Of a DNA stretch of 64,000 nucleotides, positions 34,715-53,796 are shown piece by piece. Under the pieces are notes generated by a model. That model had not been told where the DNA came from. It searched no databases and saw only the letters and a list, made by a program, of their open reading frames with translations. How positions within the stretch are numbered: position 1 is the stretch's first letter; each line of letters begins with the position of its first letter. Both the position numbers and the translations under genes were made by a program. The stretch covers positions 434,001 through 498,000 of the forward strand of contig OZ025784.1 of NCBI GenBank assembly GCA_964019425.1. The letters are read 5' to 3'. The stretch comes from Flectonema sp. DT1601. Its lineage: Eukaryota.

Positions 34715-35101
34715 TTAGTAGTTGTCTCTGGCGTACGGTCTTGGGTCACCTCCTCCTGGGGCAGTGACGTTGATCGCCTTCTCTCTTCCCATGTGGTCAG
34801 TCTCAACATCGAACTCAACATCCTGCTGCTCAGCAAGAGATCTGAATCCCTGTTTTTTTGATTTAGTTTGTTGTTGTTATAGCCTTCATTTGATCAACGG
34901 AGAGTTACGTTAGAGTGAAGTATACTTGACTCGCACATCCTCACTCACAGCAAGACATACCTGCATCTTAATAGCAGACTGGTGAACGAAAACCTCACCA
35001 TCGTTGTCCGAACGCTGAATGAATCCAAATCCCTTGTTGTCGAGCCATCTGACAACCTTTCCGGTGTTGGTACCGAGGGTGAATCTAGTAAGACGGAACA
35101 T
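34715..35101 (-). CDS. Cold-shock-domain protein copy 1 (91 aa, RBP16-like, mitochondrial-type presequence); intron 34850-34960, type A
   Basis: Spliced product MFRLTRFTLGTNTGKVVRWLDNKGFGFIQRSDNDGEVFVHQSAIKMQ/GFRSLAEQQDVEFDVETDHMGREKAINVTAPGGGDPRPYARDNY; RNP1 KGFGFI and RNP2 VFVH; intron GTATGT...CAG. Confidence 0.92.
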
Positions 35102-35396
35102 TGTTGTAAGTAAACGAGAGGGGTCTGAGGTCTGAGGAAACTACTTAATAACTAGAAACACGTTAAGTTAGAAATAGGTGTCATCTCAGCAAAGATGTAT
35201 CCTACGAAATAATGATTAGCTCTCATGTAATTACATTACTTTAGAGCTTTTTATAGTACCACACATTGAAAGGGAATAAATAGATTTCAATATAACAGTT
35301 CGACCACTTAAATAACTGAAATTTTGATAAACTAAAGAATATTGCGAATATTCCCTTCATCACAAAAAGGTTATGCAGCTACTCAGATGCAGAACC

Positions 35397-35764
35397 TTAG
35401 TAGTTGTCTCTGGCGTACGGTCTTGGGTCACCTCCTCCTGGGGCAGTGACGTTGATCGCCTTCTCTCTTCCCATGTGGTCAGACTCAACATCGAACTCAA
35501 CATCCTGCTGCTCAGCAAGAGATCTGAATCCCTGTTTTTTTTGATTTTGTATTGAAAGCATTCCGACTTCACTCATCCTCAAAAAGAAGTATTATTATTC
35601 ACAAAAAGAAAAGACTAACACACCTGCATCTTAATAGCAGTCTGGTGAACGAAAACCTCACCATCGTTGTCCGAACGCTGAATGAATCCAAATCCCTTGT
35701 TGTCGAGCCATCTGACAACCTTTCCGGTGTTGGTACCGAGGGTGAATCTAGTAAGACGGAACAT
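35397..35764 (-). CDS. Cold-shock-domain protein copy 2; intron 35532-35623, type B
   Basis: Exons near-identical to copy 1; 92-bp intron GTGTGT...CAG at the same position. Confidence 0.92.
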
Positions 35765-36355
35765 TGTTATAAAGGACTAAGAATATCTGGAGAGGATATT
35801 AAATTGATACTTTATTGAGGATTAATAATCAAGGTGAAATACCATACATAGTTAACAAGTATAGTGATAGAAAAGGAGTTATAAAGATCTCTGAACCGCT
35901 AACCGTTTGCCGGAAGGACATTCCAAACCTGTGATTAAACTAATCCCCAAGAACCACCCTAGTCGTTGTAATTGGGTGGAACACCCTTACGGCTTGGTGG
36001 TTAGTAAGCTAATGCTTCCCCCTTTATGAACATTTTTGCTTTTTTGCAGTCGCTGAGATCCATTTGACCCGTAAAAAGTCGAAGGTGAATTCAAAAGCAC
36101 TTAAAGCAGACTTACTCACTCAACTATTCCTCATGTCTTTATCCCTGCTTAGATAAGGTGAATAATGAAACAATGTGAAGTATATTTTATATAAGTTTTG
36201 CTCACAATATCGATGACTTTGTCGTAGAACTGCTGTGAGGCACCACGTTTCGGAACCGACGGCCGAAAGTGCCAATTTAGTACAATGAAAATGATATTTA
36301 AATTCTTATCTTGATAGGTGCCCAACAATACACAATAAGATTATCACGAAGTCAT

Positions 36356-36742
36356 TTAGTAGTTGTCTCTGGCGTACGGTCTTGGGTCACCTCCTCCTGG
36401 GGCAGTGACGTTGATCGCCTTCTCTCTTCCCATGTGGTCAGTCTCAACATCGAACTCAACATCCTGCTGCTCAGCAAGAGATCTGAATCCCTGTTTTTTT
36501 CATATAGTTTGTTGTTGTTATAGCCTTCATTTGATCAACGGAGCGTTACGCTAGAGTGAAGTATACTTGACTCGCACATCCTCACTCACAGCAAGACATA
36601 CCTGCATCTTAACAGCAGTCTGGTGAACGAAAACCTCACCATCGTTGTCCGAACGCTGAATGAATCCAAATCCCTTGTTGTCGAGCCATCTGACAACCTT
36701 TCCGGTGTTGGTACCGAGGGTGAATCTAGTAAGACGGAACAT
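36356..36742 (-). CDS. Cold-shock-domain protein copy 3; intron 36491-36601, type A
   Basis: As copy 1; HQTAVK variant. Confidence 0.92.
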
Positions 36743-38536
36743 TGTTATAAAGGACTAAGAATATCTGGAGAGGATATTAATAATTAATTTAAAACGTCTT
36801 GCTTACAACATTGAGGAAATTAACCAGTAAGGTCAAAAAAACCAGACTACCTCAAAAACAGTACTTGGTTGAAGTGATTTTACTCACAAGAAGAGAAAAG
36901 GAAGAAAGAACAGAAGACATACAACAATTCTTATTCAAAATAAGTTCATAAGGGAAAGGTGAATAAAAAAAGGGGGGTGGGGGGAAAAGAGAGTGAGTGA
37001 GAGATTTAATTTTGCTGTTGTTGTGCCATTTCCTTTCCCCTTTGAGACAATTATTAAGTCCCTCAAACCACACAAACTCACATCAACAGAATACCTAACC
37101 GTGAAGACTTCAACCATACGATATCTTTATGAATAAGGCTAGGGATGCACAACGATAAGTCAAACTCAACTAACATTACGCGCTTTAAATAAGATCGTTA
37201 GCATTGCAACAGAAAACACAAATGCGATCCCCGAAAAAGATATTTTGTTTATCAGTCTCTTGACATGATGTTTCTCAGTAGTAAATCAGAGTCTTTCCTT
37301 TCGAGCACCGTTTCAAACCAGACGTAGGGAATTCACAAAAGGTGATCCCTAGAAGTACAAGCTTCAGTCTAAAACATAAAACTAAAAAAGAAACCTGAAT
37401 AGAGATGTTGCATATGTTCAAAAAAAATAGAATATCCATAATAAATTAGCTATCCGTTAGTACAAAAGCTGTTGCCAAAATTCAAAACGGAAAAAAACAA
37501 CTAAAAAAAAAAACAAAAAAAAAAAAACAGTCATCTTTATAACAAAGAACAAGAACTTACAAAACACAGTAGTTTCATAATAAGAAATACCAGCCTATCA
37601 ATGATTGAAGTAGTAAATATGACAATGAAAACAGCGTGAAATACAAGTCCCTTGTTTTTGGCCTTCACCAGTAAAGACTACATTATAAATCGAGTAGTAA
37701 AGTAGTTATTTGAATAATCATATCAATCAAATAATCGTAAAGACAACAAACAGATAATGACTTGGGTTGGGGTTGGGTTGGGTTTCAGTCCCTTAAAGCA
37801 ATGAATATTTCTTCGGACCATTCCCCTTACCCGACCCTTTTCAGTGAAGCCTATTCATAGCGTTTGCCTAAATTAGGATATTGATGGAAAGTACAGTCAT
37901 TCTTCCTAACCTATCCAGGTAATTGATTAGACTGTAATATAGTAGAGAGAAAGGTAAAAATCCTTCGGAGGGAAAAAAAAAAAAACCAATTCCCAAACAA
38001 GCACAAAGATTACAAAATACACACGAAACCGAGTAAACGGTTACTACGCTCAAAAAAAGAAATAATTAAAAAAAAAAAAAAAAAAAAAAAAACGATAATC
38101 CGTATGAACCGCATAAAAATATTTCAAAAACGAAAAAAGAATATCAAAATTGGTATGCAAAAATAAGATGTTTTTTTTTTTTTTTTTCGGCCTGAATTTC
38201 AAAGAAAGATATTCTCACCTTTCTGTGAACTAAACTCATGCTGTAGATAATGCAAAGACGGGTGTCTGCTTATTAAGTTCAAGAAAAAAAACCAACAACA
38301 CTTTTCCCCCACATAACACAATACATCAAGTCCTCTCCGCAGGTTAACTGTGGAAAACTCAACACAGATTTACTATGTATGTGTGTTGTGTTGTATGATT
38401 ATTTATTTATTTTTAATATGTTTCCCCCCCCCCCCTCAATTCAAAACATTTAACCACAGCGTTTGGTGCCACAGCTAATGATTTTAAAAAAAAATAAGAA
38501 AAGGAAATAAAATACATATCGGATTCTTTTCTAATA

Positions 38537-38575
<39 letters not shown>

Positions 38576-38897
38576 TACCGAACGCAAAAAAAACAAATAA
38601 AAACAAAAAAAGTGTAAGTAAGAAAAAAAAAAGTAGTTGGGCACCAAAAAACTGACAGGAGCAAAATAATTTAAATTAAGAAAACAAAATAGATCGCAAT
38701 AATGATTTGAAATACTTAAACAGGTTGCCCTGCTTTTTTTTTTTTTTTTTTTCTTGATGTACATGCGTAAAATTAGTCTTGCCAGAAGCGGGAATACTTT
38801 TGTATTGTTCTCTGAAGACTTGACTGTAACCTTTTAGAAAGATATAGTCTTTATGGGATAAATTATCACACATGCACGCCTTCTTAGCAAACTAACT

Positions 38898-38932
<35 letters not shown>

Positions 38933-40408
38933 CTTAAAAACAGAAAGATAACGAAAGGCAAAACATTGCATCATCGAAAATTGATTCGCTGCTACACATT
39001 TTATTTATCTACTAATCCTGGGGAGCCAAAAAAAAAAACCAGAAAAAGCTCAACATAAAATAAAAAAAAAACAAAAAAAAAAAGGAAAGGAAAAAACTAC
39101 AGTCGCAAACACCACAAGGATCGTTGGAAGAAAGATTGAAAGAAAAAAAAGTCTTTGTTGTAATCAACTTGTCAATCAAAAGAAAAAAGAAATTTTTAAG
39201 GAGAATTCGAAGGATAATAAAAAAAAAGGAAGGAAACCAACAGGGCAGACATGAAGAACAAAAAACAGAATTAGAGCGTCGGATTTATCGTCGACATGAT
39301 TCCTTCTAACATCGAAGCAGCTGTGAATTTGGAAACGACAATTTTTCTATTCCCTTCCTCAAACAACCCTATAAAGTCTTTGTTTTGTTTATATTTGTTG
39401 GTGGTGGCAACTTTGAACAAGAACCGATATTCTCAGACGACGTCAGACTGCCGCACACAATTACCCAAGAAGAACTGGTTAGAGTTAGTCGATGTTTCAC
39501 AAAGTATTCAGAAACGGAAAACGTAAAAAAAAACCAAAAAAAAAAAGAGAGCAGTTCAGCCTTCGATTCCATTCATTACCACAAACACTAGAGGGCAGTG
39601 ATGCTAGGAGTTAGTACCTGAAATCTTTCGAATGCCAGGGAAAGATATAAGTTTTGCGGGTTTGCGGTCTTCACAACTGTGAAAAAGAATATCACCAGAA
39701 CGTGAGACATCTCAGCAAAGAATGGTTTTTGCTAAAGATTATTTTGGTTTTGTGAGAGCTGAGTGTGCATTCCACCTCAAAAACCTAAAGCCATTATAAG
39801 GTACCTTTTATGCTAAAAAAAGAGTAGCTTGGCATTGCTTTTCTCATATTTTGTAATTAATAATTACCTGAATCACAACTCGCAGCAACTATTACTTGTT
39901 TGCACAAAGTAAAAAAAAGGACTGAGCAAAAAAACAAACAAACAAAAACGCAATAAAAATATTAGATTCCCTGAAAAATTGGATGAAACAGAAAAAAAAA
40001 AACTGAACTTAACTATTTTTTTTTGAATCATCACTCGTATCTCTGTTAATTACAATGTACCGCAAAAGAGAAAAATATTCCCGTCAGGGAAACACTCTTG
40101 CGAACAACAGGAAGAGTACATCTCTTTTTTTTTTTCCTATTATACGGTATGAATAATAAACTGAGAGGCACTCGCTAAAGTAGGAAGGGAGGAAGTTAAT
40201 TTGCAAAAAAAAGGTTGAAAGAAATTTGGAAAAAAAGAACGAAAAACAAAAAAAACATAATAAAAAACTAGTACAAAGGTTACCAAGTTTTATATTGAAG
40301 CAGGGATAGCAAAACTACTGTTCTTTCTGTTATTCGCATCTCGCCGTCTGATGCCTTTTTGTTGTTTTTTTTACTCAAACTTTTAAATGAGTGAGCAGAG
40401 TGAAATCT

Positions 40409-43400
40409 TTACAGCTGTACGAAGCTGCTATCAGCTGTTAAAGATTGCGTTAGTTCTTGTGGAAAATCTGAAATTGGTTTTAAAATGTTAAAATTCACAG
40501 AATTTCTTGTCACTAAAGGATCCAAACCGTCACTTCCGTTACTAAAGTCAACATCAGCAGGTGTCGGGAAATCAGTTGTTTTGAGAGGTTCCAATTGTTT
40601 CTGTTGATCTTCAACTTGACTATCGAGTAACCAATCACCGTCATTCAGATCTTCCGGCTCTAATAGTTGGTTGAATTTAGGAGCGTTACTAAAATATTTA
40701 AGCTCCGCGTGAGGCTGAATTAGAATTTCTTGAACGTGGTATCCACTCTTGCCAGTAAATAAGATGGAAAATGAAGGACCATCAGTTGGAAAATCCGCAA
40801 CATCGACTTTAACCCCAGCTCCGTGAGTTTTAATGAAGAAATCATCGCTTATTAATACTTCATCACGAGATAGAAATTGAAACATGCCTCTAAAGAATCC
40901 GGGAACCGCCTTACCAGATAATTGATACACCCTTACTGAAGCAATGTCTATTGAAGGGATGTCGATGTAGTCGCCTACAACAGCTCCAGGAAATCGACTT
41001 GACTCTTTGACTGTTGAGCTGTCGACTAACAAACCAAGTAGTTTTCTTGGTAATTTTTGTGGAAAATATGTAGGTTGACAAAAGAAGTCTTCTGGTGGTT
41101 TTACCCATAAATATTTTCTTCTAAAAAAGAAATTATAAATTGGATGACGAAGTGAAAACAAAGCAATCAGCAATCCAAGCATACCAGTGACCGTACCATA
41201 ATCTTCAATCCATTTAAGCAGCTGATCCATGAAGGACATGCTTACGCTAATTCTGATACTAACACGCAATGTTCCTTCATGACCGTCGCTTATTAAGAAT
41301 TGAGGTGTGTATGAGCCTTCATCTTCAGGTTCTGGACTTCCTTGAATAACACCGTTGTTTAACTTCATCCATGATATGGGAGATTCACTGTCATCAGTCA
41401 CGATGATGTCATCACCGTCTGGATCAGACAAGTGTGATGAAATATTTACAAATAGAGAACTTCCTGATCTTAAACTAATAGCGTCAATTGTTGTTAACTG
41501 AATTGGATTGCTATTTGATAAAATATTAATATCAATAGAAACCTCCGTCGTGTTAAAACTATCTGATACTAATAAAGTTATTGAAAATGTACCATTCACA
41601 TCACCAGGTTGAACCCTCAATAATTGCAATTCTTCTGAATAATGCATCCAATCTTCTTGACCTTCCATTTTATATGATATAGGGTCAGACTCAGGATCTA
41701 TAAAATCGATATTTAAAGGATACCTGCAGGAGTGTTTGCTTATACAAGTGTAGTTTAAACTGTCAATAAGGTTTCGTGGTAGTGGTGCTATGTTTGGATG
41801 TATAGTTATGTATAGGATTATCGATCGTTGTTTGTATCCATCAGATCCAATAATCTCAACAGCGTACTCTTTACTGCGTGATGAATCTGATAGACTGGCT
41901 GTTCCAAAAAGTTTTTGTTTTTCAGTATCAAATGAGAGCCAATCTGCATTCGTTGTATTCGCTTTTACAATAACCACATCACCATCAGGATCTCTAAAGA
42001 GAGTTGGTAAAGGATAATTTAAAACAAATTTATCTCTCACGGCAGTTTTTAAAGTTTTATTTCCATATAATTCCGGAGCCCTATTCTCTTTGAAGTACGT
42101 CGGAGGGACTTCTTCTTCTAAATCAAAATTTATGTCATCTCTTAACGCAACTAAGAAATTAGATTGACTTGTATTGCCATTTGGTGAATATCGAACCCTT
42201 CTAAGCATGCTGTTAACACCAACAGAGCTTCCCATGCATTCAATTGAGTTAGTTGGATAACTACAAAACAGACCTGGAAACGTTTCCGGAACAAATTCAA
42301 CTGAAGATCCACTACCAGGATAACTAACATAAGTAATAAATATTCTTATAGTTGGAGCTGGGCTTGTTATCGATGCATACGGTGGTGTTGTATCATTGTG
42401 TCTCACTATGAACAAACTTCTTTCAACAGGAATTCTTAAAATATGAACATCATCATTAGTGTACGAAGAAAGTTCAATCTGCAACGATACGTAGACTCGT
42501 AGTATTAGATTAGTTCCGGTGTACTCCTTCGGAGCGCTGAATTGAAAAACGTTAGGGCTCATTTCCTGAACCCAAAAAGGTAAATCACGAGATTTCTGTG
42601 GAAGGAATCGAGTGACTTCCTCAACTCTAACCACGGTAACTTTACATCTGGATAAGAACAGAGAATTCATTGAGAAACATGCACTTCCAAATCGAAGTTG
42701 TTTTGCTTCACCAACAGTAAGACTTGGACTTGTGTCAGATTTGTTCTCACCATTGTGATAATACGTTAATACTGGTTGAGAATATGCGACCCCTTCAACA
42801 GAAGTAGCATCCTTTCCAATCGAGATATACCCTCCCCAGTATCCAGGTTTTTCAGGCAACATTGCTAATGCTGGTGATGGATAACTGTTTACAGTGTAGG
42901 CTTCATAGGGACCAGTTGAAGCTGGAACAGGAACCATGATATCTGTGATGTCGTACATTTCTATTTTCCCAATATCATTGAATACTATTAGTGTATTCCC
43001 AACAGACATAATCTTCCAACAAGATTGATATAATCCTTCAGGAAATATCTTTGATAGAGACCCTGGTCTGTAGTGATATCCAATAAGAGAATCATATCCA
43101 CATCCGAATATATATTCTTCACCGTCTCTAACAATTGTTAAAGCATCTGCGAAAGTATATCTAATCGGAGTGTATTCACCTGTTACTAAGTGTACTATTC
43201 CTAGTTGAGTAGAATCAGATTTTATGTAAGCAGGATATAGTTTTAATGGTTCTACAAAGGTTGATCCAAAGCCAACAACAGGAGATGCTCGTTCCCTACT
43301 AACGGTTACCTTACCAGTGCTTAGCCCACGAGTTGTTATGAAGTTTCCTTCATGGATTGGGTTAATATTATCCACACAAACAGTAACATCATCTATAACG

Positions 43401-45925
43401 TGAGGCATGCAATACGAATGTCCTGAACAAGTTGCATATTTTCTCACACCACTTCCAATACCTCTGAAATCCATTCGTATGGTTGTCGGACACCATCCAG
43501 AAATGATCTCCGGAAATGGCAGAATCGACTTTTCTACAATAACTCTGTCAGCATCACCACCAAGTACAGATGACCCAACTCTATGTAGAATCATATAATT
43601 ATCATCAGTTAGAGAGACTCCTATAATTCCTCCTTTATCAGTTGGGAATACGGATACTAGATTAGTATTATTGCTGTGTACCTCTAGTCTGACGGCTAAG
43701 CTGCAAGCACGTACAGCGATTCTAACATCTCCGTGTGGACCTGGACCAAGACTGCTACCTGTACACATGTCTCCAATTAATATAAAAACACCATTTGTCA
43801 TTGGATCTCTGCTAGCGAATCTGGTTGGAGGTCCCATTGATGGATAGGCTGCACTGAAATTTAATGAAAGAGAAAGAGATCCCATTGAATCTCTGCGGAA
43901 TATATTTACTTGGGTTGAAGTGTATCGGCTTTCAATTTCACCGAACAATCGTAAATGGTCGATTCCAAAGACTCCCATGTACCTAAAAACCACGTCAATG
44001 TTTGTTGGTGATACAACGTCACATTTTTGAGAAAGATGATATAAATAATAATCTGATGTTACTAACGATCCTGACGCGTAGTGTATCGAGTTTGTACCAG
44101 TTCTGACAAATCTCATTACTGAACCCATTTTGTGAGGTCCTACCTCTTCAGTGATGAATGCGTATCCACCATCTTCGTATCTCTTATCAGAATTACTACA
44201 TAAAACTACCCGTTGTGTAGCTGTAACGGTAATGCCATACATTGGTAAATACTTCTTTTTAATGTTCTGAGGATCAGATAAGTTGTACATAAATAAACTA
44301 TCACTGTTTATGACGTAAAGTGTTTCATCTATTCCGCTTACTCCATTACCAGCAGGGACAGACATCAAAGCTACTTGAGTTATGGTATCGGTTTGTTGTC
44401 TGAATATTATTACTGCACCACGACCATGAGTTATCGTTATCAGTGTATCTCCAAATACATTGTCAGTTCGACTTATAAAATGCATTGTCGCAATTGAAGC
44501 TGCCGCCCGACTTATAAAATTCCCAGCACTAGACATATTGAAATCGTTTGATGAAAGTGATATCCCGGTACTCAAATCAACAGAATACAACTTACCGGTC
44601 CATTCTCCTTCCCACTGCTTTGAAAATGCTTCTTCTGGTTCATAGATTCCAACATCAATAAAAGCTCTCTCTGAATAAATAAACAATCCCATTTGAGTAG
44701 ATGAGTTCACAGTGTGGATAGAACAGTTAAAAGATACGTCTGTGAAAAGAGTTGTCGAAGGTGTTTTTATAGCGACTGAGCAGATTCCAGATGTGTTACT
44801 GTATAGTAAAGAGTAGACCTCACTGTTGTGAAGGGTTCCAATCTCTGGGTCAACTAGAGTTTTGTTGGTTGTTCCGAATTGTATAAAACTGCCGTCAGTT
44901 GCAAGAAGTGGAATTGAATCAAGAAACTGTGTAGTTCGATCCTCGGCGAAACACTCTCTATTGTTCATATTCGGGTCTTTCCATAAATTTGTTATCGGAT
45001 ACGTTCCATACGCAAAAACTCCAACATCCGAACAAATATACAATCGTCCTCCAAAAGCCATACCAATTACTGTGTAATCTCCCGGTGGAAGTTGAATTTG
45101 ACGGACATGAATAGGATTTTTATTGACTGATATGTCAAACAAATGAAGAAACGCCCTATCATCAATAATCCATAACTGATTACCTTCCGCATAGATACCT
45201 TGAACAGAACTTCCATCGGGTATAACTATGTTTTTTATCATCATCTCTGAAGGCGACGACATCATTAAACAACTACAATAAACAGTGCTCCCAACACTGA
45301 CTATTCTGGGTTGAGGTGGTATTGAATTACAAACATCAATTTCGGAATACACTGTTGATAATGATCCATCAGCATTTGATAATTTTATTTCTCTGATATA
45401 AGTCCCAATCATGTAGTACAAAACTCCTTCAGATATGGTTATATCAAAAACAGTACTGTGAACACCTGCTGACGGTGGAGTATAAAATGATGAAACGCCA
45501 GTTAATTGATTCCAAATAATTATTTTATCAGTACATGCGCCATAAATGTAATCTCCATATGAGACAAGTCTATTACATGTGTTGGTTCCAGTTGGAATAT
45601 CAAACAAAACTTCTAAGTCATCAGTCTGTTGGTATTTCGTTATATTATCGCCAACAGTGAAGAGAAACCCATCAGACGTTACTGTGGTTGCTGTAAGTCC
45701 GGGTTGTGGTCTGATACCACCTCCCTGAATACCCAAATTCTGTCTCGTCGCTTCAATTTTTCGAATATCTAACGAAACAATAGCAGTACTGTGTAATGTA
45801 TAGATCAAGTCATTAGTTGGATCAACAGCCAATCCAAACAAACCTCCCTGTGAATAAAAACCGTGGAGGAAACTAACATCAGTGACTGCCACAGCCAACA
45901 GCTGTATAGTTGTTATCCACAACAT
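40409..45925 (-). CDS. 1838-aa type I membrane protein: signal peptide, beta-propeller-like region, dystroglycan-type cadherin-like (CADG/He_PIG-like) repeats, TM helix, cytoplasmic tail
   Basis: Hydrophobic N-terminus; three repeats FRDPDGD..DWLSFD..LFGT, FIDPESD..DWMHY and LSDPDGD..SWMKL..IQGSP; TM GTVTGMLGLLIALFSL followed by basic residues. Confidence 0.85.
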   Translation of the reverse strand: MLWITTIQLLAVAVTDVSFLHGFYSQGGLFGLAVDPTNDLIYTLHSTAIVSLDIRKIEATRQNLGIQGGGIRPQPGLTATTVTSDGFLFTVGDNITKYQQTDDLEVLFDIPTGTNTCNRLVSYGDYIYGACTDKIIIWNQLTGVSSFYTPPSAGVHSTVFDITISEGVLYYMIGTYIREIKLSNADGSLSTVYSEIDVCNSIPPQPRIVSVGSTVYCSCLMMSSPSEMMIKNIVIPDGSSVQGIYAEGNQLWIIDDRAFLHLFDISVNKNPIHVRQIQLPPGDYTVIGMAFGGRLYICSDVGVFAYGTYPITNLWKDPNMNNRECFAEDRTTQFLDSIPLLATDGSFIQFGTTNKTLVDPEIGTLHNSEVYSLLYSNTSGICSVAIKTPSTTLFTDVSFNCSIHTVNSSTQMGLFIYSERAFIDVGIYEPEEAFSKQWEGEWTGKLYSVDLSTGISLSSNDFNMSSAGNFISRAAASIATMHFISRTDNVFGDTLITITHGRGAVIIFRQQTDTITQVALMSVPAGNGVSGIDETLYVINSDSLFMYNLSDPQNIKKKYLPMYGITVTATQRVVLCSNSDKRYEDGGYAFITEEVGPHKMGSVMRFVRTGTNSIHYASGSLVTSDYYLYHLSQKCDVVSPTNIDVVFRYMGVFGIDHLRLFGEIESRYTSTQVNIFRRDSMGSLSLSLNFSAAYPSMGPPTRFASRDPMTNGVFILIGDMCTGSSLGPGPHGDVRIAVRACSLAVRLEVHSNNTNLVSVFPTDKGGIIGVSLTDDNYMILHRVGSSVLGGDADRVIVEKSILPFPEIISGWCPTTIRMDFRGIGSGVRKYATCSGHSYCMPHVIDDVTVCVDNINPIHEGNFITTRGLSTGKVTVSRERASPVVGFGSTFVEPLKLYPAYIKSDSTQLGIVHLVTGEYTPIRYTFADALTIVRDGEEYIFGCGYDSLIGYHYRPGSLSKIFPEGLYQSCWKIMSVGNTLIVFNDIGKIEMYDITDIMVPVPASTGPYEAYTVNSYPSPALAMLPEKPGYWGGYISIGKDATSVEGVAYSQPVLTYYHNGENKSDTSPSLTVGEAKQLRFGSACFSMNSLFLSRCKVTVVRVEEVTRFLPQKSRDLPFWVQEMSPNVFQFSAPKEYTGTNLILRVYVSLQIELSSYTNDDVHILRIPVERSLFIVRHNDTTPPYASITSPAPTIRIFITYVSYPGSGSSVEFVPETFPGLFCSYPTNSIECMGSSVGVNSMLRRVRYSPNGNTSQSNFLVALRDDINFDLEEEVPPTYFKENRAPELYGNKTLKTAVRDKFVLNYPLPTLFRDPDGDVVIVKANTTNADWLSFDTEKQKLFGTASLSDSSRSKEYAVEIIGSDGYKQRSIILYITIHPNIAPLPRNLIDSLNYTCISKHSCRYPLNIDFIDPESDPISYKMEGQEDWMHYSEELQLLRVQPGDVNGTFSITLLVSDSFNTTEVSIDINILSNSNPIQLTTIDAISLRSGSSLFVNISSHLSDPDGDDIIVTDDSESPISWMKLNNGVIQGSPEPEDEGSYTPQFLISDGHEGTLRVSIRISVSMSFMDQLLKWIEDYGTVTGMLGLLIALFSLRHPIYNFFFRRKYLWVKPPEDFFCQPTYFPQKLPRKLLGLLVDSSTVKESSRFPGAVVGDYIDIPSIDIASVRVYQLSGKAVPGFFRGMFQFLSRDEVLISDDFFIKTHGAGVKVDVADFPTDGPSFSILFTGKSGYHVQEILIQPHAELKYFSNAPKFNQLLEPEDLNDGDWLLDSQVEDQQKQLEPLKTTDFPTPADVDFSNGSDGLDPLVTRNSVNFNILKPISDFPQELTQSLTADSSFVQL

Positions 45926-46317
45926 TAAATCATTTACTGTGTGTCTGAGAGTGATGGTTTGACATTAATAAGAATTATTTTAATAAGGAAAACATAAACA
46001 TTAAACTCATAGAGTGAACCTAGTGAGATAGAATTATTATTATAAAAAAAGTAAGAATATAATAATCGTTGTGTTTTGATTTCATTTAATTATTTGCACG
46101 CATCTCAGCAGAGATTACAGATTACAAAAGAAAAAATAAAAATTTAAAAAAAAAATTCCCCTAAATATTGATTCTACGGACACTCAAAAATATAAAATAA
46201 AATAATTTAACAATTGCAAACAATGTTTTGTTAAAGTAATAATAATCAGATTTTTACTACCGGGAGGGTTTCATAAAGATTCCTCTTATAAAAATTTACT
46301 TTCCATAGGCCATAAAT

Positions 46318-46685
46318 TTAGTAGTTGTCTCTGGCGTACGGTCTTGGGTCACCTCCTCCTGGGGCAGTGACGTTGATCGCCTTCTCTCTTCCCATGTGGT
46401 CAGACTCAACATCGAACTCAACATCCTGCTGCTCAGCAAGAGATCTGAATCCCTGTTTTTTTTGATTTTGTATTGAAAGCATTCCGACTTCACTCATCCT
46501 CAAAAAGAAGTATTATTATTCACAAAAAGAAAAGACTAACACACCTGCATCTTAATAGCAGTCTGGTGAACGAAAACCTCACCATCGTTGTCCGAACGCT
46601 GAATGAATCCAAATCCCTTGTTGTCGAGCCATCTGACAACCTTTCCGGTGTTGGTACCGAGGGTGAATCTAGTAAGACGGAACAT
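46318..46685 (-). CDS. Cold-shock-domain protein copy 4; intron 46453-46544, type B
   Basis: Exons and intron essentially identical to copy 2. Confidence 0.92.
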
Positions 46686-47302
46686 TGTTATAAAGGACTA
46701 AGAATATCTGAAAAGAGAAAATATTTTTAAAAAAAAAAAAAAACAAGCTGAAATATTTTTTTTGACCCGACTCATCAGAGTAATCAAGGTATGGTGATGT
46801 ATCGCTAAATTTTTTTTTTTTTGATAACAACAAAAAAAATAGGTTATTGGAATACAATTAAAAACAGAACAAGAGGAATACCGCGCAATGACGGAAAGCT
46901 CTAAGTTGTACATTCTTCAATTGGCTGATATAAGATTCCGATTCACATCTGATGCAAGTGAAACAATCTCAATCAATGTCAACTAAGTAAGCCAAGAGCC
47001 AAGTTGGGCAGGGAAAAAACAGAAAGAAAAACAGAGAGGGAAAAAAAAAAGATTTTGATCACTTTTTCTTCCAGAAGAGCTTACTCAATTGTTCCGATGA
47101 ATAATTACTTTTCCACTATTTGCTTTAATTTATTTAGTCGCGATTATTTTTTTTTTTCACGCAGGTAAAGGCCTACGGCCTTAGTGCGTTTACGCAGGCT
47201 TCTTTAAATGATTTTACAACAGGGCGTTGTAATAGAAAAATGCTCAACTGTTTTCATTTGGTACTAAGCAATGCGAGGCACTACTACGAAGTAATTAATT
47301 GC

Positions 47303-47687
47303 TTAGTAGTTGTCTCTGGCGTACGGTCTTGGGTCACCTCCTCCTGGGGCAGTGACGTTGATCGCCTTCTCTCTTCCCATGTGGTCAGTCTCAACATCGA
47401 ACTCAACATCCTGCTGCTCAGCAAGAGATCTGAATCCCTGTTTTTTTGATTTAGTTTGTTGACTTTGTAGTCCTCATTTAATCAATGGGGAATTACGTGA
47501 GTGAAAAATACTTGACTCGCACATCCTCACTCACAGCAAGACATACCTGCATCTTAATAGCAGACTGGTGAACGAAAACCTCACCATCGTTGTCCGAACG
47601 CTGAATGAATCCAAATCCCTTGTTGTCGAGCCATCTGACAACCTTTCCGGTGTTGGTACCGAGGGTGAATCTAGTAAGACGGAACAT
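47303..47687 (-). CDS. Cold-shock-domain protein copy 5; intron 47438-47546, diverged type A
   Basis: As copy 1; 109-bp intron. Confidence 0.92.
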
Positions 47688-48105
47688 TGTTATAAAGGGT
47701 GAAAAGATTTATCTGAAAAAAGAATAAAATAGTTAAATAAAAAAATGTTTCTTTTAAACAACAGCATTCCACAGAACAAGACAGCCCAATCAACAACAGT
47801 AATTTATGTCTGGAAAAGAAATTAACTATTTCATCTTATAAATCATAATTAAAATAAATTCCCATACAGAACCAGTTGTAACCTTACCAACACCCGTCGC
47901 CTCTTTTTCTTTGTAGTGTCAGCTCTACGAGCTGGGGGTGGAGTAAGACTCTCTGATTGATACTTCTTACCTGATAATCATTAGAATATATGCGACCAAT
48001 GGGCTTTCTGGTAAAGCTCTCCCAGCATCCCAACCGCTTAATGCTTCTTGTTTTACAGAAGAAAACACACTTTAAAATAGAGAGAAGGATAAAATACTAA
48101 ATTAA

Positions 48106-50894
48106 CTAATAGTTGTCTCTAGCGTACGGTCTTGGGTCTCCACCTCCTGGGGCAGTGACGTTGATCGCCTTCTCTCTTCCCATGTGGTCAGTCTCAACAT
48201 CGAACTCAACATCCTGCTGCTCAGCAAGAGATCTGAATCCCTGTTTTTGTAGTGAAATAAACGGAAGTTTTTTATCAGGTTGCGTACAGACATTACAAAT
48301 GATTCGAAGTAAGGCAACACATCAGACGGCTCTTCCTAAATAAGGTGTTTTACATCAAAGGTCGATCAGAGTTGGATTGTTCGAATATAATTCATCATTT
48401 GGTGAGGAGAGAATCACATGAGTGAATCAAAGGAAGAAATCAAAGAAGGAGATTGCTAATAACTTGCTGCCAACAAAGACAGAATAAAAGAACAACATCA
48501 GACGGCTCTTCCTAAATAAGGTGTTTTACATCAAAGGTCGATCAGAGTTGGATTGTTCGAATATAATTCATCATTTGGTAAGGAGAAAATCACAAGAGTG
48601 AATCAAAAGAAGAAATCAAAGAAGGAGATTGCTAATAACTTGCTGCCAACAAAGACAGAAGAAAAGAACAACATCAGACGGCTCTTCCTAAATAAGGTGT
48701 TTTACATCAAAAGTCGATCAGAGTTGGATTGTTCGAATATAATTCATCATTTGGTGAGGAGAGAATCACATGAGTGAATCAAAAGAAGAAATCAAAGAAG
48801 GGGATTGCTAATAACTTGCTGCCAACAAAGACAGAAGAAAAGAACAACATCAGACGGCTCTTCCTAAATAAGGTGTTTTACATCAAAAGTCGATCAGAGT
48901 TGGATTGTTCGAATATAATTCATCATTTGGTGAGGAGAGAATCACATGAGTGAATCAAAAGAAGAAATCAAAGAAGGAGATTGCTAATAACTTGCTGCCA
49001 ACAAAGACAGAAGAAAAGAACAACATCAGACGGCTCTTCCTAAATAAGGTGTTTTACATCAAAAGTCGATCAGAGTTGGATTGTTCGAATATAATTCATC
49101 ATTTGGTGAGGAGAGAATCACATGAGTGAATCAAAGGAAGAAATCAAAGAAGGAGATTGCTAATAACTTTCTGCCAACAAAGACAGAATAAAAGAACAAC
49201 ATCAGACGGCTCTTCCTAAATAAGAAGGTGTTTTACATCAAAGGTCGATCAGAGTTGGATTGTTCGAATATAATTCATCATTTGGTAAGGAGAAAATCAC
49301 ATGAGTGAATCAAAAGAAGAAATCAAAGAAGGAGATTGCTAATAACTTGCTGCCAACAAAGACAGAATAAAAGAACAACATCAGACGGCTCTTCCTAAAT
49401 AAGGTGTTTTACATCAAAGGTCGATCAGAGTTGGATTGTTCGAATATAATTCATCATTTGGTAAGGAGAAAATCACAAGAGTGAATCAAAAGAAGAAATC
49501 AAAGAAGGAGATTGCTAATAACTTGCTGCCAACAAAGACAGAAGAAAAGAACAACATCAGACGGCTCTTCCTAAATAAGGTGTTTTACATCAAAGGTCGA
49601 TCAGAGTTGGATTGTTCGAATATAATTCATCATTTGGTAAGGAGAAAATCACAAGAGTGAATCAAAAGGAGAAATCAAAGAAGGGCATTGCAAACAACTT
49701 GCTGCCAACAAAGACAGAAGAAAAGAACAACATCAGACGGCTCTTCCTAAATAAGGTGTTTTACATCAAAAGTCGATCAGAGTTGGATTGTTCGAATATA
49801 ATTCATCATTTGGTGAGGAGAGAATCACATGAGTGAATCAAAGGAAGAAATCAAAGAAGGAGATTGCTAATAACTTGCTGCCAACAAAGACAGAATAAAA
49901 GAACAACATCAGACGGCTCTTCCTAAATAAGGTGTTTTACATCAAAGGTCGATCAGAGTTGGATTGTTCGAATATAATTCATCATTTGGTGAGGAGAGAA
50001 TCACATGAGTGAATCAAAAGAAGAAATCAAAGAAGGAGATTGCTAATAACTTGCTGCCAACAAAGACAGAAGAAAAGAACAACATCAGACGGCTCTTCCT
50101 AAATAAGGTGTTTTACATCAAAGGTCGATCAGAGTTGGATTGTTCGAATATAATTCATCATTTGGTAAGGAGAAAATCACAAGAGTGAATCAAAAGGAGA
50201 AATCAAAGAAGGGCATTGCAAACAACTTGCTGCCAACAAAGACAGAAGAAAAGAACAACATCAGACGGCTCTTCCTAAATAAGGTGTTTTACATCAAAAG
50301 TCGATCAGAGTTGGATTGTTCGAATATAATTCATCATTTGGTGAGGAGAGAATCACATGAGTGAATCAAAAGAAGAAATCAAAGAAGGAGATTGCTAATA
50401 ACTTGCTGCCAACAAAGACAGAAGAAAAGAACAACATCAGACGGCTCTTCCTAAATAAGGTGTTTTACATCAAAGGTCGATCAGAGTTGGATTGTTCGAA
50501 TATAATTCATCATTTGGTAAGGAGAGAATCACATGAGTGAATCAAAAGAAGAAATCAAAGAAGGAGATTGCTAATAACTTGCTGCCAACAAAGACAGAAG
50601 AAAAGAACAACATCAGACGGCTCTTCCTAAATAAGGTGTTTTACATCAAAGGTCGATCAGAGTTGGATTGTTCGAATATAATTCATCATTTGGTGAGGAG
50701 AGAATCACAGATGTTTAAGTATTATTATTCACAAAAAGAAAAGACTAACACACCTGCATCTTAACAGCAGTCTGGTGAACGAAAACCTCACCATCGTTGT
50801 CCGAACGCTGAATGAATCCAAATCCCTTGTTGTCGAGCCATCTGACAACCTTTCCGGTGTTGGTACCGAGGGTGAATCTAGTAAGACGGAACAT
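48106..50894 (-). CDS. Cold-shock-domain protein copy 6, snoRNA host gene. Exons 50894-50754 and 48240-48106; 2513-bp intron 48241-50753
   Basis: Both exons intact and in frame; donor GTGTGT and acceptor ctacaaaaacAG intact; TAG stop; the intron contains the 176-bp array. Confidence 0.82.
48316..50709. repeat. Tandem array of a 176-bp unit (14 snoRNA cores, 13 full spacers)
   Basis: Anchor tcagacggctcttcc starts at 48322, 48498, 48674, 48850, 49026, 49202, 49381, 49557, 49733, 49909, 50085, 50261, 50437 and 50613. Period is 176; one unit is 179 because of a 3-bp insertion. Confidence 0.98.
48322..48398 (-). ncRNA. Double-guide box C/D snoRNA (one of 14 tandem copies; the last is at 50613-50689), predicted to target the LSU rRNA PTC/A-loop region
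   Basis: Minus strand: ATGATGA [C] ATTATATTC GAACAATCCAAC T CTGA [D'] TCGACCTT TGATGT [C'] AAAACACCTTATT TAGGAAGAGCCG T CTGA [D]. The two 12-nt guides are antisense to the conserved eukaryotic LSU rRNA segments GUUGGAUUGUUC and CGGCUCUUCCUA. Confidence 0.9.
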
Positions 50895-51227
50895 TGTTGT
50901 GAAGTTACGGTGCAATCTAAAACAAAGAAATTACAAAATAAATTAAACTCTTAACTTAAAACAAAAAATATAAAACTAAATAACTACTTTAAACTTTTTG
51001 TACGCGCTGATTGAACGTCGTAAATATTGAGAAATCCCAAGTGAAGCTAACCAGTAAGCAGTCCAGCTCAGTGGGTGCTCGTAGCGCATAGAATTTACCT
51101 TATATCATCAGCCAAGAAAAACAGAACTCCCAATTGCGATAAATTAAAAAATCGATAACTAAAAAATAATCTGAGAGGTTTTAATTAGATCATTCCGTAT
51201 ATATAATCTTACTGAGCAATTTATTGC

Positions 51228-51614
51228 TTAGTAGTTGTCTCTGGCGTACGGTCTTGGGTCACCTCCTCCTGGGGCAGTGACGTTGATCGCCTTCTCTCTT
51301 CCCATGTGGTCAGTCTCAACATCGAACTCAACATCCTGCTGCTCAGCAAGAGATCTGAATCCCTGTTTTTTTGATTTAGTTTGTTGTTGTTATAGCCTTC
51401 ATTTGATCAACGGAGAGTTACGTTAGAGTGAAGAATACTTGAGTCGCACATTCTCACTCACAGTAAGACATACCTGCATCTTAATAGCAGTCTGGTGAAC
51501 GAAAACCTCACCATCGTTGTCCGAACGCTGAATGAATCCAAATCCCTTGTTGTCGAGCCATCTGACAACCTTTCCGGTGTTGGTACCGAGGGTGAATCTA
51601 GTAAGACGGAACAT
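51228..51614 (-). CDS. Cold-shock-domain protein copy 7; intron 51363-51473, type A
   Basis: As copy 1; ATG at 51614 after the acceptor tttcattcAG. Confidence 0.92.
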
Positions 51615-51757
51615 TGTTGTGAATGAAAGTCGAAAACCTGAATGAAACAAAAAAAAAATTGAGTTTAATACAACAGAAAACAAAGTGAAACATGGCTATG
51701 CTTCTCAGCCTTTAATGCAATAAATAGTTTTCTGCAGCAAACCTAATATTTATATAT

Positions 51758-53113
51758 CAGTCAAAATTTTATTTCCTTACCAAAAAACACTGTTTTTCCC
51801 CCCACTGTATTTTTGGTGAAACTATAAGATTTTCTCTCGATTTTTTTTAGATTTTATTTATTTCTTTCCGATCTATTAAAATACGCAATTCCCGGTCCTC
51901 GTACACTGGTAACTTGTGTGCTGTTTCACATTTTTCGACGATTCACCCGATTTTTTAAAATTCAGGATGAAAAGAAGTTGATCCGAAATCGGGATCGGAA
52001 TCAGCGGGAAAAAATCATAAAATTCTACCCCTCGGTCGGGCTTTCGGGGGTCAGTACGTGTGTGTGGGCAGCCGCCAGCTTTTGACTGGGGATACCGGGT
52101 ACTAAAATTCGGGCGAATCACTTCAAGGCGAAATTTATGCTGGGGTGGATGGCAGCAGCTAACAGGGATATTACCTGGGATCGTTTTCCAACTGGGCATG
52201 GCAAAGGCCCATGGGATTCCGAGGGTTATCAACTGAAGAAGTTTGCTCTTGACATCGCGCGCTCCCCCAAACAATACGAGATGCAAGGAGAAATAGTTGA
52301 CGCAAGATCACTGTATGAAGTTGCGAGCAAGAGAATGAAACTCGCTGCTTCGACGCATGTTGTTTGCTCACGAGTGTTTAACTTCTTACCTGACCTAGTT
52401 GATATCTCCCCCCGCTACGGCAGCATGACCCTACCCGGCATCCAGAGCAACTTCTTCTCCTTCCACTCTCTCGTGAACGGCTATCAGAATGAGATTCAGC
52501 AATACACAATGGGATATCGTGCTCTATCGTGTTTCTGTGCGCACTGCATCAGAGCAGACCACGAGCTGTGCGAGTTACAGGGAGCCAGACTTGGATAGTA
52601 GCAGTTGTAGCGGTAGTTCAGGCACCAGCTTTGATGACGACGATGACGACGACAGTTCTGATGAAACCTCCGATAGCTCATCATAATTCCAAAGAATAAG
52701 GTCAGAAAAGTAGTGTGTCAAAAGTGTCCAAAAATAAGTGTGGAAAAGTGGTTAAAAAATACTGTAGTAAGCTGACGGCTACCCCACTGTACAAGAATCA
52801 GTTTTATGATATTTTTGCTCGATTTTTTTTTTATTTAATCGGGCTGACCCCCATCTACGCGAATAAGCACTTCGATTTATTTCCAGGTGAGAGACTCATC
52901 CATGGTTGACCGAAAAGAGGAAACTGCGAAATCTCGGTTGTGAGTTTGAAGGATGCTCTTCAGATTTAGGAATTCCGATTATTAGTCGGGCAGGATCACA
53001 TGTTTCCGCGCATTTAAATGCAGCTTTGGTCGGCACATTTACTCCTCACAGCAATTTTGTGGTCCACTTTTCCGTTTTTGCCTATTTTTGATAAGGAAAT
53101 AAAATTTTGACTG
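51758..53113 (+). mobile_element. Internally deleted TIR DNA transposon, Sola-like, ~1.36 kb
   Basis: 29-bp TIRs CAGTCAAAATTTTATTTCCTTA(C/T)CAAAAA at 51758-51786 and 53085-53113 (1 mismatch). ATAT flanks both ends (51754-57, 53114-17); TATA with a 1-bp shift is an alternative reading. Interior is GC-richer and holds a transposase fragment. Confidence 0.85.
52113..52598 (+). pseudogene. C-terminal transposase fragment
   Basis: In-frame ANHFKAKFMLGW...ITWDRFPTGHGKGPWDSEG...RALSCFCAHC. The FxxxHGKGPxD and CxCxxC motifs resemble Sola2-type transposases (from memory). It is the only credible plus-strand coding segment and lies inside the TIRs. Confidence 0.7.
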
Positions 53114-53429
53114 ATATACAGTGATAAAGTTACCTGTAAATAGATTAAAGGATAAATACTGTACAAGGACGAGTAGTGAAATTACCATAATCGTAATCCG
53201 GTCGCAGAGGTAACGGTGTTTTAGTGGTAAATAAGTGCCAGCTAAGTGGTCACACACTTCTTTCAGATATTCTTTTTAGTCTTGCCTTTCTGTTAAGTAC
53301 GTAGTCTGCAATGAACTAATACTGATCAACTTCCTCTGATTATCAGTATTTACTCGTTATAATACAGAAAAATGCTCAACTGTTTTCATTTGGTACTAAG
53401 CAATGCGAGGCACTACTACAAGTAAGCAA

Positions 53430-53796
53430 TTAATAGTTGTCTCTGGCGTACGGTCTTGGGTCACCTCCTCCTGGGGCAGTGACGTTGATCGCCTTCTCTC
53501 TTCCCATGTGGTCAGACTCAACATCGAACTCAACATCCTGCTGCTCAGCAAGAGATCTGAATCCCTGTTTTTTTTGATTTTGTATTGAAAGCATTCCGAC
53601 TTCACTCATCCTCAAAAGAAGTATTATTATTCACAAAAAGAAAAGACTAACACACCTGCATCTTAATAGCAGTCTGGTGAACGAAAACCTCACCATCGTT
53701 GTCCGAACGCTGAATGAATCCAAATCCCTTGTTGTCGAGCCATCTGACAACCTTTCCGGTGTTGGTACCGAGGGTGAATCTAGTAAGACGGAACAT
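53430..53796 (-). CDS. Cold-shock-domain protein copy 8; intron 53565-53655, type B
   Basis: As copy 2; 91-bp intron. Confidence 0.92.

What the first reader, a model, noticed from the sequence alone, without database searches (positions are those of the whole stretch)
48241..50753. The 176-bp 'satellite' is a 14-fold tandem box C/D snoRNA array inside one intron of a cold-shock-domain gene
Seen in sequence: every unit carries, on the host-gene sense strand, a 77-nt cassette with perfect box C (AUGAUGA), D' (CUGA), a C'-like UGAUGU and D (CUGA). A 12-nt element sits one base upstream of each D box: GAACAAUCCAAC and UAGGAAGAGCCG. Boxes and guides are invariant in all 14 copies, while substitutions and the 3-bp insertion fall in linkers and spacers. 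Established knowledge: these elements are antisense to LSU rRNA GUUGGAUUGUUC (A-loop helix 92) and CGGCUCUUCCUA (helix 90). The D+5 rule predicts 2'-O-methylation at the equivalents of human Gm4494 and Cm4456 (yeast numbering G2917 and C2879), guided in human by separate RNAs SNORD69 and SNORD49 (recalled, verify). Inference: one RNA guides both sites and has been amplified homotypically inside a spliceosomal intron. This combines trypanosome-style reiterated clusters with intron hosting, inside an amplified RNA-chaperone gene family, and may raise dosage for peptidyl-transferase-centre methylation. I do not know a described case of this arrangement, but I cannot search.
Basis: partly seen in the sequence, partly recalled or inferred. 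Interest (0 to 1): 0.92.

Follow-up and report, generated by a model that had tools for sequence, protein, structure and literature searches.

The report
Tandem snoRNA array in diplonemid intron
A satellite-like repeat lying between the two exons of a small multicopy gene in a marine protist (a diplonemid) is fourteen head-to-tail copies of a likely small nucleolar guide RNA, predicted to methylate two conserved bases near the ribosome's catalytic centre; related layouts are known in other eukaryotes, so this is a new variant and not a new kind of system.

Summary
Observation confirmed. Fourteen 77-nt cassettes (period 176) with boxes C, D', C', D fill a 2,513-nt GT-AG interval of one of eight near-identical two-exon genes. 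Both 12-nt guides pair perfectly with eukaryotic LSU rRNA. The D+5 rule picks the C and G matching Arabidopsis Cm2880/Gm2918 and human Cm4456/Gm4494, which Arabidopsis guides with separate RNAs. 0 of 637 CTGA sites outside the interval have such a guide. The organism is a diplonemid near Flectonema. In a relative's contigs the cassette is 67/68 identical (host exons ~92%), tandem with another spacer, and linked to the same exon 2 by short overlaps.

Not shown: mature RNA, methylation, the organism's own rRNA, splicing of this copy, any dosage benefit. The host's cold-shock label is recalled. Intronic snoRNA clusters and repeated euglenozoan clusters are known, and this scan noted similar arrays on other DNA (e1-7359270, e1-7908654; unchecked). 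New here: a diplonemid guide snoRNA (none found in my searches), the two-site pairing, and a trans-splice-like acceptor in every spacer. New variant of a known kind; interest 0.45.

The parts
48241..50753 (-). GT-AG interval (predicted cis-intron, 2,513 nt) of host copy 3, holding the array
   Evidence: Same position and phase as the 91-111-nt introns of 7 sister copies; first 37 nt identical to introns of copies at 53796, 46685, 35764; 3' 81 nt share only the last 8 nt with sister introns
48322..50689 (-). 14 box C/D cassettes: 50613-50689, 50437-50513, 50261-50337, 50085-50161, 49909-49985, 49733-49809, 49557-49633, 49381-49457, 49202-49281 (80 nt), 49026-49102, 48850-48926, 48674-48750, 48498-48574, 48322-48398
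50683..50689 (-). Box C (ATGATGA) of cassette 1; same offset in every unit
   Evidence: a 4-of-5-pair terminal stem is possible in 13 of 14 copies, and the C/T polymorphism there pairs with G either way
50657..50673 (-). D' guide (12 nt, 50662-50673), one base, box D' (50657-50660); predicted target G = Arabidopsis Gm2918 / human Gm4494
   Evidence: 12 bp, -19.3 kcal/mol with locus L020; numbering
50643..50648 (-). C'-like box (TGATGT)
   Evidence: last base differs in the X10 homologue
50613..50629 (-). D guide (12 nt, 50618-50629), one base, box D (50613-50616); predicted target C = Arabidopsis Cm2880 / human Cm4456 (U49 site)
   Evidence: 12 bp, -22.6 kcal/mol; SNORD49 model matches here at E=0.081, below its cut-off
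50514..50612 (-). 99-nt spacer (first of 13): 72% pyrimidine; a pyrimidine tract and AG at 50583 lying in a hairpin (about 50566-50611)
   Evidence: 18 of 20 pyrimidines before the AG, reached by 1.3% of 1,662 non-ORF AGs; fold z=-3.45, 0 of 200 shuffles, one of 7 sequences folded; hairpin kept in all 5 variants
50754..50894 (-). Exon 1 of host copy 3 (141 nt); cold-shock-domain-like by recalled motifs, not by a search
   Evidence: relatives show exon 1 joined to exon 2 at this position (X5, X10; X3, X9, X10)
48106..48240 (-). Exon 2 of host copy 3 (135 nt with stop); four positions unique to this copy (48142, 48139, 48121, 48106), none changing the protein
47900..48105 (-). 3' flank unique to host copy 3
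   Evidence: 0 of 191 16-mers occur elsewhere in the window; a 238-nt contig of RNA run X10 covers 47900-48138 with 10 other letters and 1 gap
34715..53796 (-). Seven sister copies of the host gene with short introns and no cassette (start codons at 53796, 51614, 47687, 46685, 36742, 35764, 35101)
   Evidence: no 14-mer of the unit occurs outside the array

Best explanation
The repeat is fourteen tandem copies of one likely box C/D snoRNA gene, lying in the predicted intron of one copy of a small multicopy gene of a diplonemid; each copy is predicted to yield an ~80-nt RNA whose two guides would direct 2'-O-methylation of a C and a G 38 nt apart near the catalytic centre of the large ribosomal RNA. 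Shown: the anatomy, the pairing with eukaryotic LSU rRNA, the identity of the two D+5 positions with known methylated sites, and the cassette's conservation in relatives. Inferred: the array is co-transcribed with the host and spliced out as one intron, then cut between units (the spacer hairpin or pyrimidine tract may be the signal) and trimmed to the protein-protected C/D ends. Fibrillarin, present in D. papillatum, would then methylate both sites, possibly with both guides bound at once, since they are antisense in the same order as their targets. The copy number most likely arose by unequal crossing-over and conversion in a repeat-prone genome. The host probably supplies strong expression rather than a shared function.
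For: Boxes and guides intact in 14 of 14. 28 of 29 CTGA in the interval and 0 of 637 outside have a conserved-LSU antisense. Only the two guides of the 176-nt unit match all 37 rRNA loci at 10 nt or more; 3 of 3 loci tested are LSU_rRNA_eukarya. D+5 gives C and G 38 nt apart; the target G has U at +4, G at +5 and A at -6, and the target C has U at +4, as the Arabidopsis list Cm2880, Um2884, Am2912, Gm2918, Um2922, Gm2923 requires. A 186-nt contig joins the cassette's 3' end over 129 letters to the start of exon 2. X3 (same sample) adds box C with one inserted base. X10 holds a third version, 53 of 61. The intron position is spliced in relatives (X3, X5, X9, X10). The host copy keeps an intact frame.
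Against: No mature RNA, no methylation data and no spliced read of this copy were seen; all runs were contigs, which cannot show ends, strand or level. The organism's own rRNA was not available (no genome), and the 37 rRNA loci were picked by the target pattern itself, so they cannot show that diplonemids keep the sites. The X2 joint has only 30 and 27 letters on its sides, below the tool's 31-letter rule, and a link from exon 1 to the array was not seen in organism B (in X3 a 1,067-nt contig ends in box C with 1,036 upstream letters that I could not place). The cassette was found in 3 of 6 runs laid (X2, X3, X10; two studies), not in X1, X5, X9. No Rfam family reaches its cut-off. Two metagenome scans for the cassette gave 0. 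The 3' end of the interval is unrelated to the sister introns.
Confidence: 0.72

Rival explanations
1. Same snoRNA, trypanosome-style release: each spacer's pyrimidine tract and AG is a spliced-leader trans-splice acceptor, so the array is cut into separately capped precursors by trans-splicing (with or without cis-splicing of the host), not by debranching plus endonuclease.
For: The spacer AG has 18 of 20 pyrimidines upstream, like the presumed acceptors before the 8 host start codons (11-16 of 20) and unlike the A-rich cis acceptors of the 7 short introns (6-7 of 20; 13 for the host copy). Organism B also has a pyrimidine tract right after box D (loose end). T. brucei and L. major snoRNA precursors are trans-spliced and polyadenylated (PMC6562600, passage).
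Against: The AG sits inside a predicted hairpin, which could mask it. The whole spacer is pyrimidine-rich. The X10 homologue has a GC-rich flank instead. The acceptor comparison uses one gene family, and its trans acceptors are inferred. No leader junction in a spacer was seen.
Confidence: 0.15
2. The snoRNA genes are real, but the host copy is no longer spliced across them: the array is an intergenic-type cluster in a polycistronic unit, flanked by remnants of a duplicated gene.
For: Diplonemid genes are co-transcribed in long units, and gene ends are often repeated without being part of the mRNA (PMC10161547, passages). The 3' 81 nt of the interval are unrelated to the sister introns. No copy-3 splice junction was seen.
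Against: GT and AG are intact at the conserved positions; the frame is intact and the copy-specific changes are silent. The copy-3 3' flank appears joined to the end of exon 2 in an RNA library (DNA cannot be excluded). The cassette-to-exon-2 link appears in a second species.
Confidence: 0.08
3. A plain satellite or an antisense rDNA-derived repeat, or an assembly expansion of one unit, with no RNA function.
For: No Rfam hit at cut-off; satellites and short tandem arrays are common in diplonemids; no reads spanning the array were available.
Against: The 32-nt linker between the guides is unrelated to the 26-nt antisense of the rRNA between the targets (alignment score equals the shuffled mean, 51% of 2,000 shuffles as good). 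The cassette is more conserved between species than the protein-coding exons. 10 haplotypes among 13 units. Guides sit exactly at D+5 over known methylation sites.
Confidence: 0.05

Closest known systems
U49 / SNORD49 (Rfam RF00277; AtU49 for Cm2880 = human Cm4456) and AtsnoR34 (Gm2918 = human Gm4494; human guide SNORD69, recalled)
   Same: Same two target nucleotides by the D+5 rule; the D guide matches the SNORD49 consensus guide with one difference.
   Different: One RNA carries both guides, whereas Arabidopsis uses two (PMC8583080, table passages). The U49-type guide lies before box D here and before D' in the Rfam consensus. The score is far below the family cut-off, so it works like U49 and snoR34 without being a member of either family. 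Both sites are blank in the yeast column.
Intronic snoRNA gene clusters (rice, Liang 2002; Chlamydomonas, Chen 2008; Ostreococcus, PMC7671301; Drosophila H/ACA clusters)
   Same: Several snoRNA genes in one intron of a host gene, needing release from a polycistronic intron (PMC11028025, PMC7671301, PMC3089462: passages; the rice and Chlamydomonas papers seen only as titles in reference lists).
   Different: Here one C/D gene is repeated 14 times at 97% identity with a fixed period, like a satellite. Drosophila C/D genes follow one per intron. The host is itself an 8-copy family of which one copy carries the array.
Repeated snoRNA clusters of trypanosomatids and Euglena gracilis (Moore and Russell 2012, title and a citing passage only)
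   Same: Euglenozoan, repeated, polycistronic, several copies or isoforms (PMC13487219, PMC6562600, PMC2784804, PMC7671301: passages).
   Different: Those clusters typically mix C/D and H/ACA genes, and trypanosomatids have almost no cis-introns. This one is a single gene repeated inside a cis-intron position.
Mammalian tandem C/D arrays (SNORD113-116, rat Bsr)
   Same: Large tandem repeats of one C/D family, homogenised by unequal recombination and conversion (PMC11028025, passage).
   Different: Those are orphan guides in repeated introns of non-coding hosts. Here the guides have canonical rRNA targets and all copies share one intron of a coding gene.

Membership tests
Box C/D methylation-guide snoRNA | Box C (RUGAUGA) near the 5' end and box D (CUGA) near the 3' end, 60-100 nt | tested here: met
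   14 of 14 copies, 77-80 nt
Box C/D methylation-guide snoRNA | Internal D' and C' boxes | tested here: met
   D' CTGA exact; C' TGATGT, one change from consensus
Box C/D methylation-guide snoRNA | 10-21-nt antisense to rRNA just upstream of D or D', target at the fifth base | tested here: met
   Two perfect 12-bp duplexes with eukaryotic LSU rRNA of other organisms; targets are known methylated sites
Box C/D methylation-guide snoRNA | Complementarity to the organism's own rRNA | not testable with these tools
   No genome held; none of L001-L037 is known to be diplonemid
Box C/D methylation-guide snoRNA | Short terminal stem closing the C/D kink-turn | tested here: inconclusive
   4 of 5 pairs in 13 of 14 copies, 2 of 5 in the last; no stable fold overall, as is usual for this class (recalled)
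Box C/D methylation-guide snoRNA | Discrete RNA bound by fibrillarin/Nop56/Nop58/Snu13 that causes methylation | not testable with these tools
   Only contigs were served; cassette pieces at depth 5-15.5 in X3 and 2 in X10 cannot show ends or strand
SNORD49 (Rfam RF00277) | Score at or above the family's gathering threshold | tested here: not met
   17.5 bits against 37; E=0.081; match limited to the C'-to-D half
SNORD49 (Rfam RF00277) | Guide for the Cm4456-equivalent site | tested here: met
Intronic snoRNA cluster | Two or more snoRNA genes, sense strand, between one pair of splice sites | tested here: met
   14 copies between GT 50753 and AG 48241 at a position that is an intron in 7 sister copies and spliced in relatives
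Intronic snoRNA cluster | The host copy is spliced across the cluster and releases it | tested here: inconclusive
   Spliced joints seen belong to other copies or species; a copy-3-type 3' flank is in RNA run X10 but its contig stops at 48138
Trypanosomatid-type reiterated cluster | Precursors trans-spliced and polyadenylated | tested here: inconclusive
   Acceptor-like tract and AG in each spacer; no leader junction seen
Cold-shock domain (host protein) | Match to a cold-shock-domain profile | not tested
   Label rests on recalled RNP-like motifs in exon 1; no family or homologue result was obtained for the host

The most novel reading that the evidence does not exclude
Every repeat is a complete trypanosome-style snoRNA gene with its own spliced-leader acceptor, nested in a cis-spliced intron: cis-splicing frees the host mRNA, while trans-splicing at each spacer cuts the intron into 14 capped precursors of one RNA that grips both flanks of the catalytic-centre helices at once and methylates both. 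Diplonemids would then join the intronic and the trans-spliced routes of snoRNA production in one locus.
Probability: 0.15. Interest if true: 0.75.

Novelty: new variant of a known kind. Interest (0 to 1): 0.45.

Why it matters
Diplonemids are the intron-rich sister group of kinetoplastids. My searches found no paper on their methylation-guide snoRNAs; the D. papillatum genome paper has no 'snoRNA' in its main text or 7 readable supplements, but its main supplement, which covers structural RNAs, could not be read. The locus gives a concrete, testable guide RNA, and shows that 'satellite' or long-intron repeats in these genomes can be functional RNA arrays that Rfam misses. It also offers a direct test of how an organism with both cis- and trans-splicing cuts many snoRNAs out of one intron. 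The cassette stays fixed while spacer and period change between species (176 and 219), which makes it a small model of concerted evolution. It does not by itself show a new mechanism or selection for dosage.

Tried and rejected
Whole genome: none held, so no own rRNA, no other loci of the cassette and no genome-wide acceptor model. Rfam at cut-off: 0; 33000-48300 at E<=2: 1 chance bacterial hit. Viral contigs, rRNA pattern: 0. Metagenome contigs, two cassette patterns: 0 and 0. Other guide snoRNAs in the window: the loose C...D scan listed 11 candidates outside the array, but no CTGA outside the array has an antisense to conserved words of the 3' part of LSU rRNA (SSU and the 5' part of LSU were not available). 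Full-text search for the guide words: 52 papers, 40 listed, none about snoRNAs by title. Trypanosomatid supplements for the guide or target words: 0 in 11 of 18 files (PMC13487219) and 0 in 1 of 2 files (PMC3273796), so whether trypanosomes or Euglena pair these two sites on one RNA is open; the Euglena ribosome supplement could not be read. The Chlamydomonas paper is not held. 'homocluster' search: 0. X1 holds only an exon-1 piece with the upstream letters of other copies; X5 and X9 hold exons but no cassette (absence in contigs proves nothing). Contig depths (X2: repeat 9.35, joint 9.1, short-intron unit 6.52; X3: spliced host 4,846, cassette pieces 5-15.5) are not used as copy number or expression, though they give no hint of 14 copies in organism B. 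Rejected: rDNA-derived repeat; a conserved fold across the unit as the functional element (z=-0.13); membership of SNORD49; dosage as a shown cause.
Full report
Observation. The window holds a tandem repeat at 48319-50709, period 176, 13.6 copies, 97% matches. On the minus strand each unit carries a 77-nt cassette: box C, 9 nt, a 12-nt guide, one base, box D', 8 nt, a C'-like box, 13 nt, a second 12-nt guide, one base, box D. There are 14 cassettes, one with a 3-nt insertion. Boxes and guides are identical in 14 of 14. One substitution column and the insertion lie in cassette linkers, and 11 columns lie in the 99-nt spacer (Fisher p=0.013, or 0.041 with the insertion). The 13 full units form 10 haplotypes at 97.4% mean identity, with three identical pairs, the pattern of a real array under unequal exchange rather than one unit duplicated by the assembler. 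Reads spanning the array were not available. No 14-mer of the unit occurs elsewhere in the window.

Setting. The array fills a 2,513-nt GT-AG interval (50753-48241) of one of eight near-identical two-exon genes for a 91-residue protein; the other seven have a 91-111-nt intron at the same point. The first 37 nt of the long interval equal the start of three sister introns, and its last 81 nt share only 8 nt with them, so the array came in with a new 3' end. The host copy's frame is intact and its four private exon-2 changes are silent. I read the host as cold-shock-domain-like with a mitochondrial-type N-terminus, similar to trypanosome RBP16; this is recalled from motifs and comes from no search. 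Another ORF of the window (62587-63225) has its closest relative in Flectonema neradi (82%) and the next in four other diplonemids (44-53%); it lies on a 1,369,261-nt contig. The organism is therefore a diplonemid. No genome is held.

Targets. A scan of prokaryote assemblies with the two target words returned 37 contaminating loci; 3 of 3 tested are eukaryotic LSU rRNA. Because the pattern chose them, they show that the two words co-occur in LSU rRNA, not that diplonemids keep them. Both guides form perfect 12-bp duplexes (-19.3 and -22.6 kcal/mol), and they are the only parts of the unit that match all 37 loci at 10 nt or more. The fifth base upstream of D faces a C and that upstream of D' faces a G, 38 nt apart. 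The neighbours fit the published Arabidopsis list (Cm2880, Um2884, Am2912, Gm2918, Um2922, Gm2923), which equates the two sites with human Cm4456 and Gm4494, leaves both blank in yeast, and assigns AtU49 and AtsnoR34 as separate guides (PMC11542601 and PMC8583080, table passages). That these are helices 90 and 92 beside the A-loop, and that SNORD69 is the human guide, is recalled. As a control, 0 of 637 CTGA sites outside the interval have an 11-nt antisense to conserved LSU words directly upstream, against 28 of 29 inside. The four-box pattern arose in 1 of 20,000 shuffles (pattern written after seeing the unit). Rfam finds nothing at cut-off; its best E-value is SNORD49, 0.081, on the D guide. 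The linker between the guides is unrelated to the rRNA between the targets, so this is not an rDNA fragment.

Relatives. Ten runs held a small share of the region; I laid six. The host exons there match only 144/155 and 131/142, so the cassette is better conserved than the coding sequence. A 186-nt contig runs from the cassette's 3' end over 129 letters into the start of exon 2; its sides are 30 and 27 letters, under the tool's 31-letter rule, so the link is suggestive. A link from exon 1 into the array was not seen. X3, from the same sample, shows the spliced host and six cassette pieces, one reaching box C with one inserted base. X10, a marine metatranscriptome, holds a third version (53 of 61) with a 23-nt partial copy 119 nt upstream, and a 238-nt contig about 95% like the end of exon 2 plus the 3' flank unique to the host copy; DNA in that library cannot be excluded. 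X3, X5, X9 and X10 show exon 1 joined to exon 2, but for other copies or species. X1, X5 and X9 gave no cassette piece. Two metagenome scans for the cassette gave 0.

Mechanism. Most likely (0.72): transcription with the host, splicing, cuts between units, trimming to the C/D ends, and fibrillarin-guided methylation of both sites. Fibrillarin is listed for D. papillatum (PMC10161547 supplement). Only the anatomy, pairing and conservation are shown. How 14 units are separated is open. Each spacer begins with a pyrimidine tract and an AG (18 of 20 pyrimidines; reached by 1.3% of 1,662 non-ORF AGs) that resembles the presumed trans-splice acceptors before the host start codons, not the A-rich cis acceptors. 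It lies in a hairpin kept in all 5 spacer variants (z=-3.45, one of 7 sequences folded). Organism B also has a pyrimidine tract after box D, while the X10 version has a GC-rich flank. Trypanosomatid snoRNA precursors are trans-spliced (PMC6562600, passage), so release by trans-splicing is the boldest reading (0.15). An unspliced, intergenic-type cluster (0.08) and a functionless satellite or artefact (0.05) fit worse. Dosage is untested. Tandem repeats of gene ends and of small-RNA genes are common in D. papillatum (PMC10161547, passages), and intronic snoRNAs mainly need a broadly expressed host (PMC3511168, abstract and passages), so drift in copy number is at least as likely.

Comparison and novelty. 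Several snoRNAs in one intron are described as a class (PMC11028025, passages), in Ostreococcus (PMC7671301, passages) and for Drosophila H/ACA genes (PMC3089462, passages); rice and Chlamydomonas papers were seen only as titles in reference lists. Repeated or multi-isoform clusters are described for trypanosomatids and Euglena (PMC13487219, PMC6562600, PMC2784804, PMC7671301, passages). A two-guide C/D RNA with nearby predicted targets and tandem isoforms is described in Drosophila, one per intron (PMC1821038, passages). PMC11613528, PMC7672448 and PMC13228274 (passages) added background only. Ten searches gave no paper on diplonemid guide snoRNAs, on a single C/D gene repeated this often in one intron, or on one RNA for these two sites. 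Subscription papers are missing from the library, and unread supplements (D. papillatum file 1, the Euglena ribosome file, 7 of 18 Leishmania files, 1 of 2 T. brucei files) may bear on this. Unchecked notes of this scan report a 26-copy two-snoRNA array in a Euglena-like intron and six H/ACA copies in one RpL3 intron; none matched this sequence or genome.

Verdict. The finding is real and very likely a functional dual-guide snoRNA array. It works like U49 plus snoR34, is not a member of either family by score, and extends known intronic and euglenozoan cluster layouts to diplonemids: a new variant of a known kind, interest 0.45, rising to about 0.75 if each unit proves to be released by trans-splicing from within a cis-intron.

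Noticed in passing
window 51363-51473, 47438-47546, 36491-36601, 34850-34960 (- strand): The short introns of the host family fall into two types; the 109-111-nt type can form a long hairpin (z=-2.97 and -2.03 in two copies, -0.56 in a third; the fourth not folded). No Rfam hit in the three that lie in 33000-48300.
   Followed up: partly
window, acceptors of the 8 host copies: Cis-intron 3' ends are A-rich (6-7 of 20 pyrimidines in 7 copies) while the presumed trans-splice acceptors are pyrimidine-rich (11-16 of 20): the two splicing modes may use different acceptor signals in this diplonemid.
   Followed up: partly
window 34715-53796: Eight copies of a 91-residue gene, differing at only 8 coding positions but with mostly different flanks, in two groups split by a 5.5-kb ORF (40409-45964); organism B has a tandem unit of about 732 nt of the same gene.
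   Followed up: partly
run X5, loose end at window 50898: The letters upstream of the start codon end in what looks like the 3' end of the euglenozoan spliced leader (recalled), about 27 nt before the start codon.
   Followed up: no
run X10, 269-nt contig: A diverged cassette is preceded 119 nt upstream by a copy that matches only the D' half, perhaps a sister snoRNA with a different D guide.
   Followed up: no
L001-L037: Eukaryotic LSU rDNA sits in many prokaryote reference assemblies (37 loci shown, about 260 stretches estimated); L001 also holds a group I intron match.
   Followed up: no
window 2608-4002 (- strand): A 464-codon Ala/Asn/His-rich low-complexity ORF in a GC-richer stretch.
   Followed up: no
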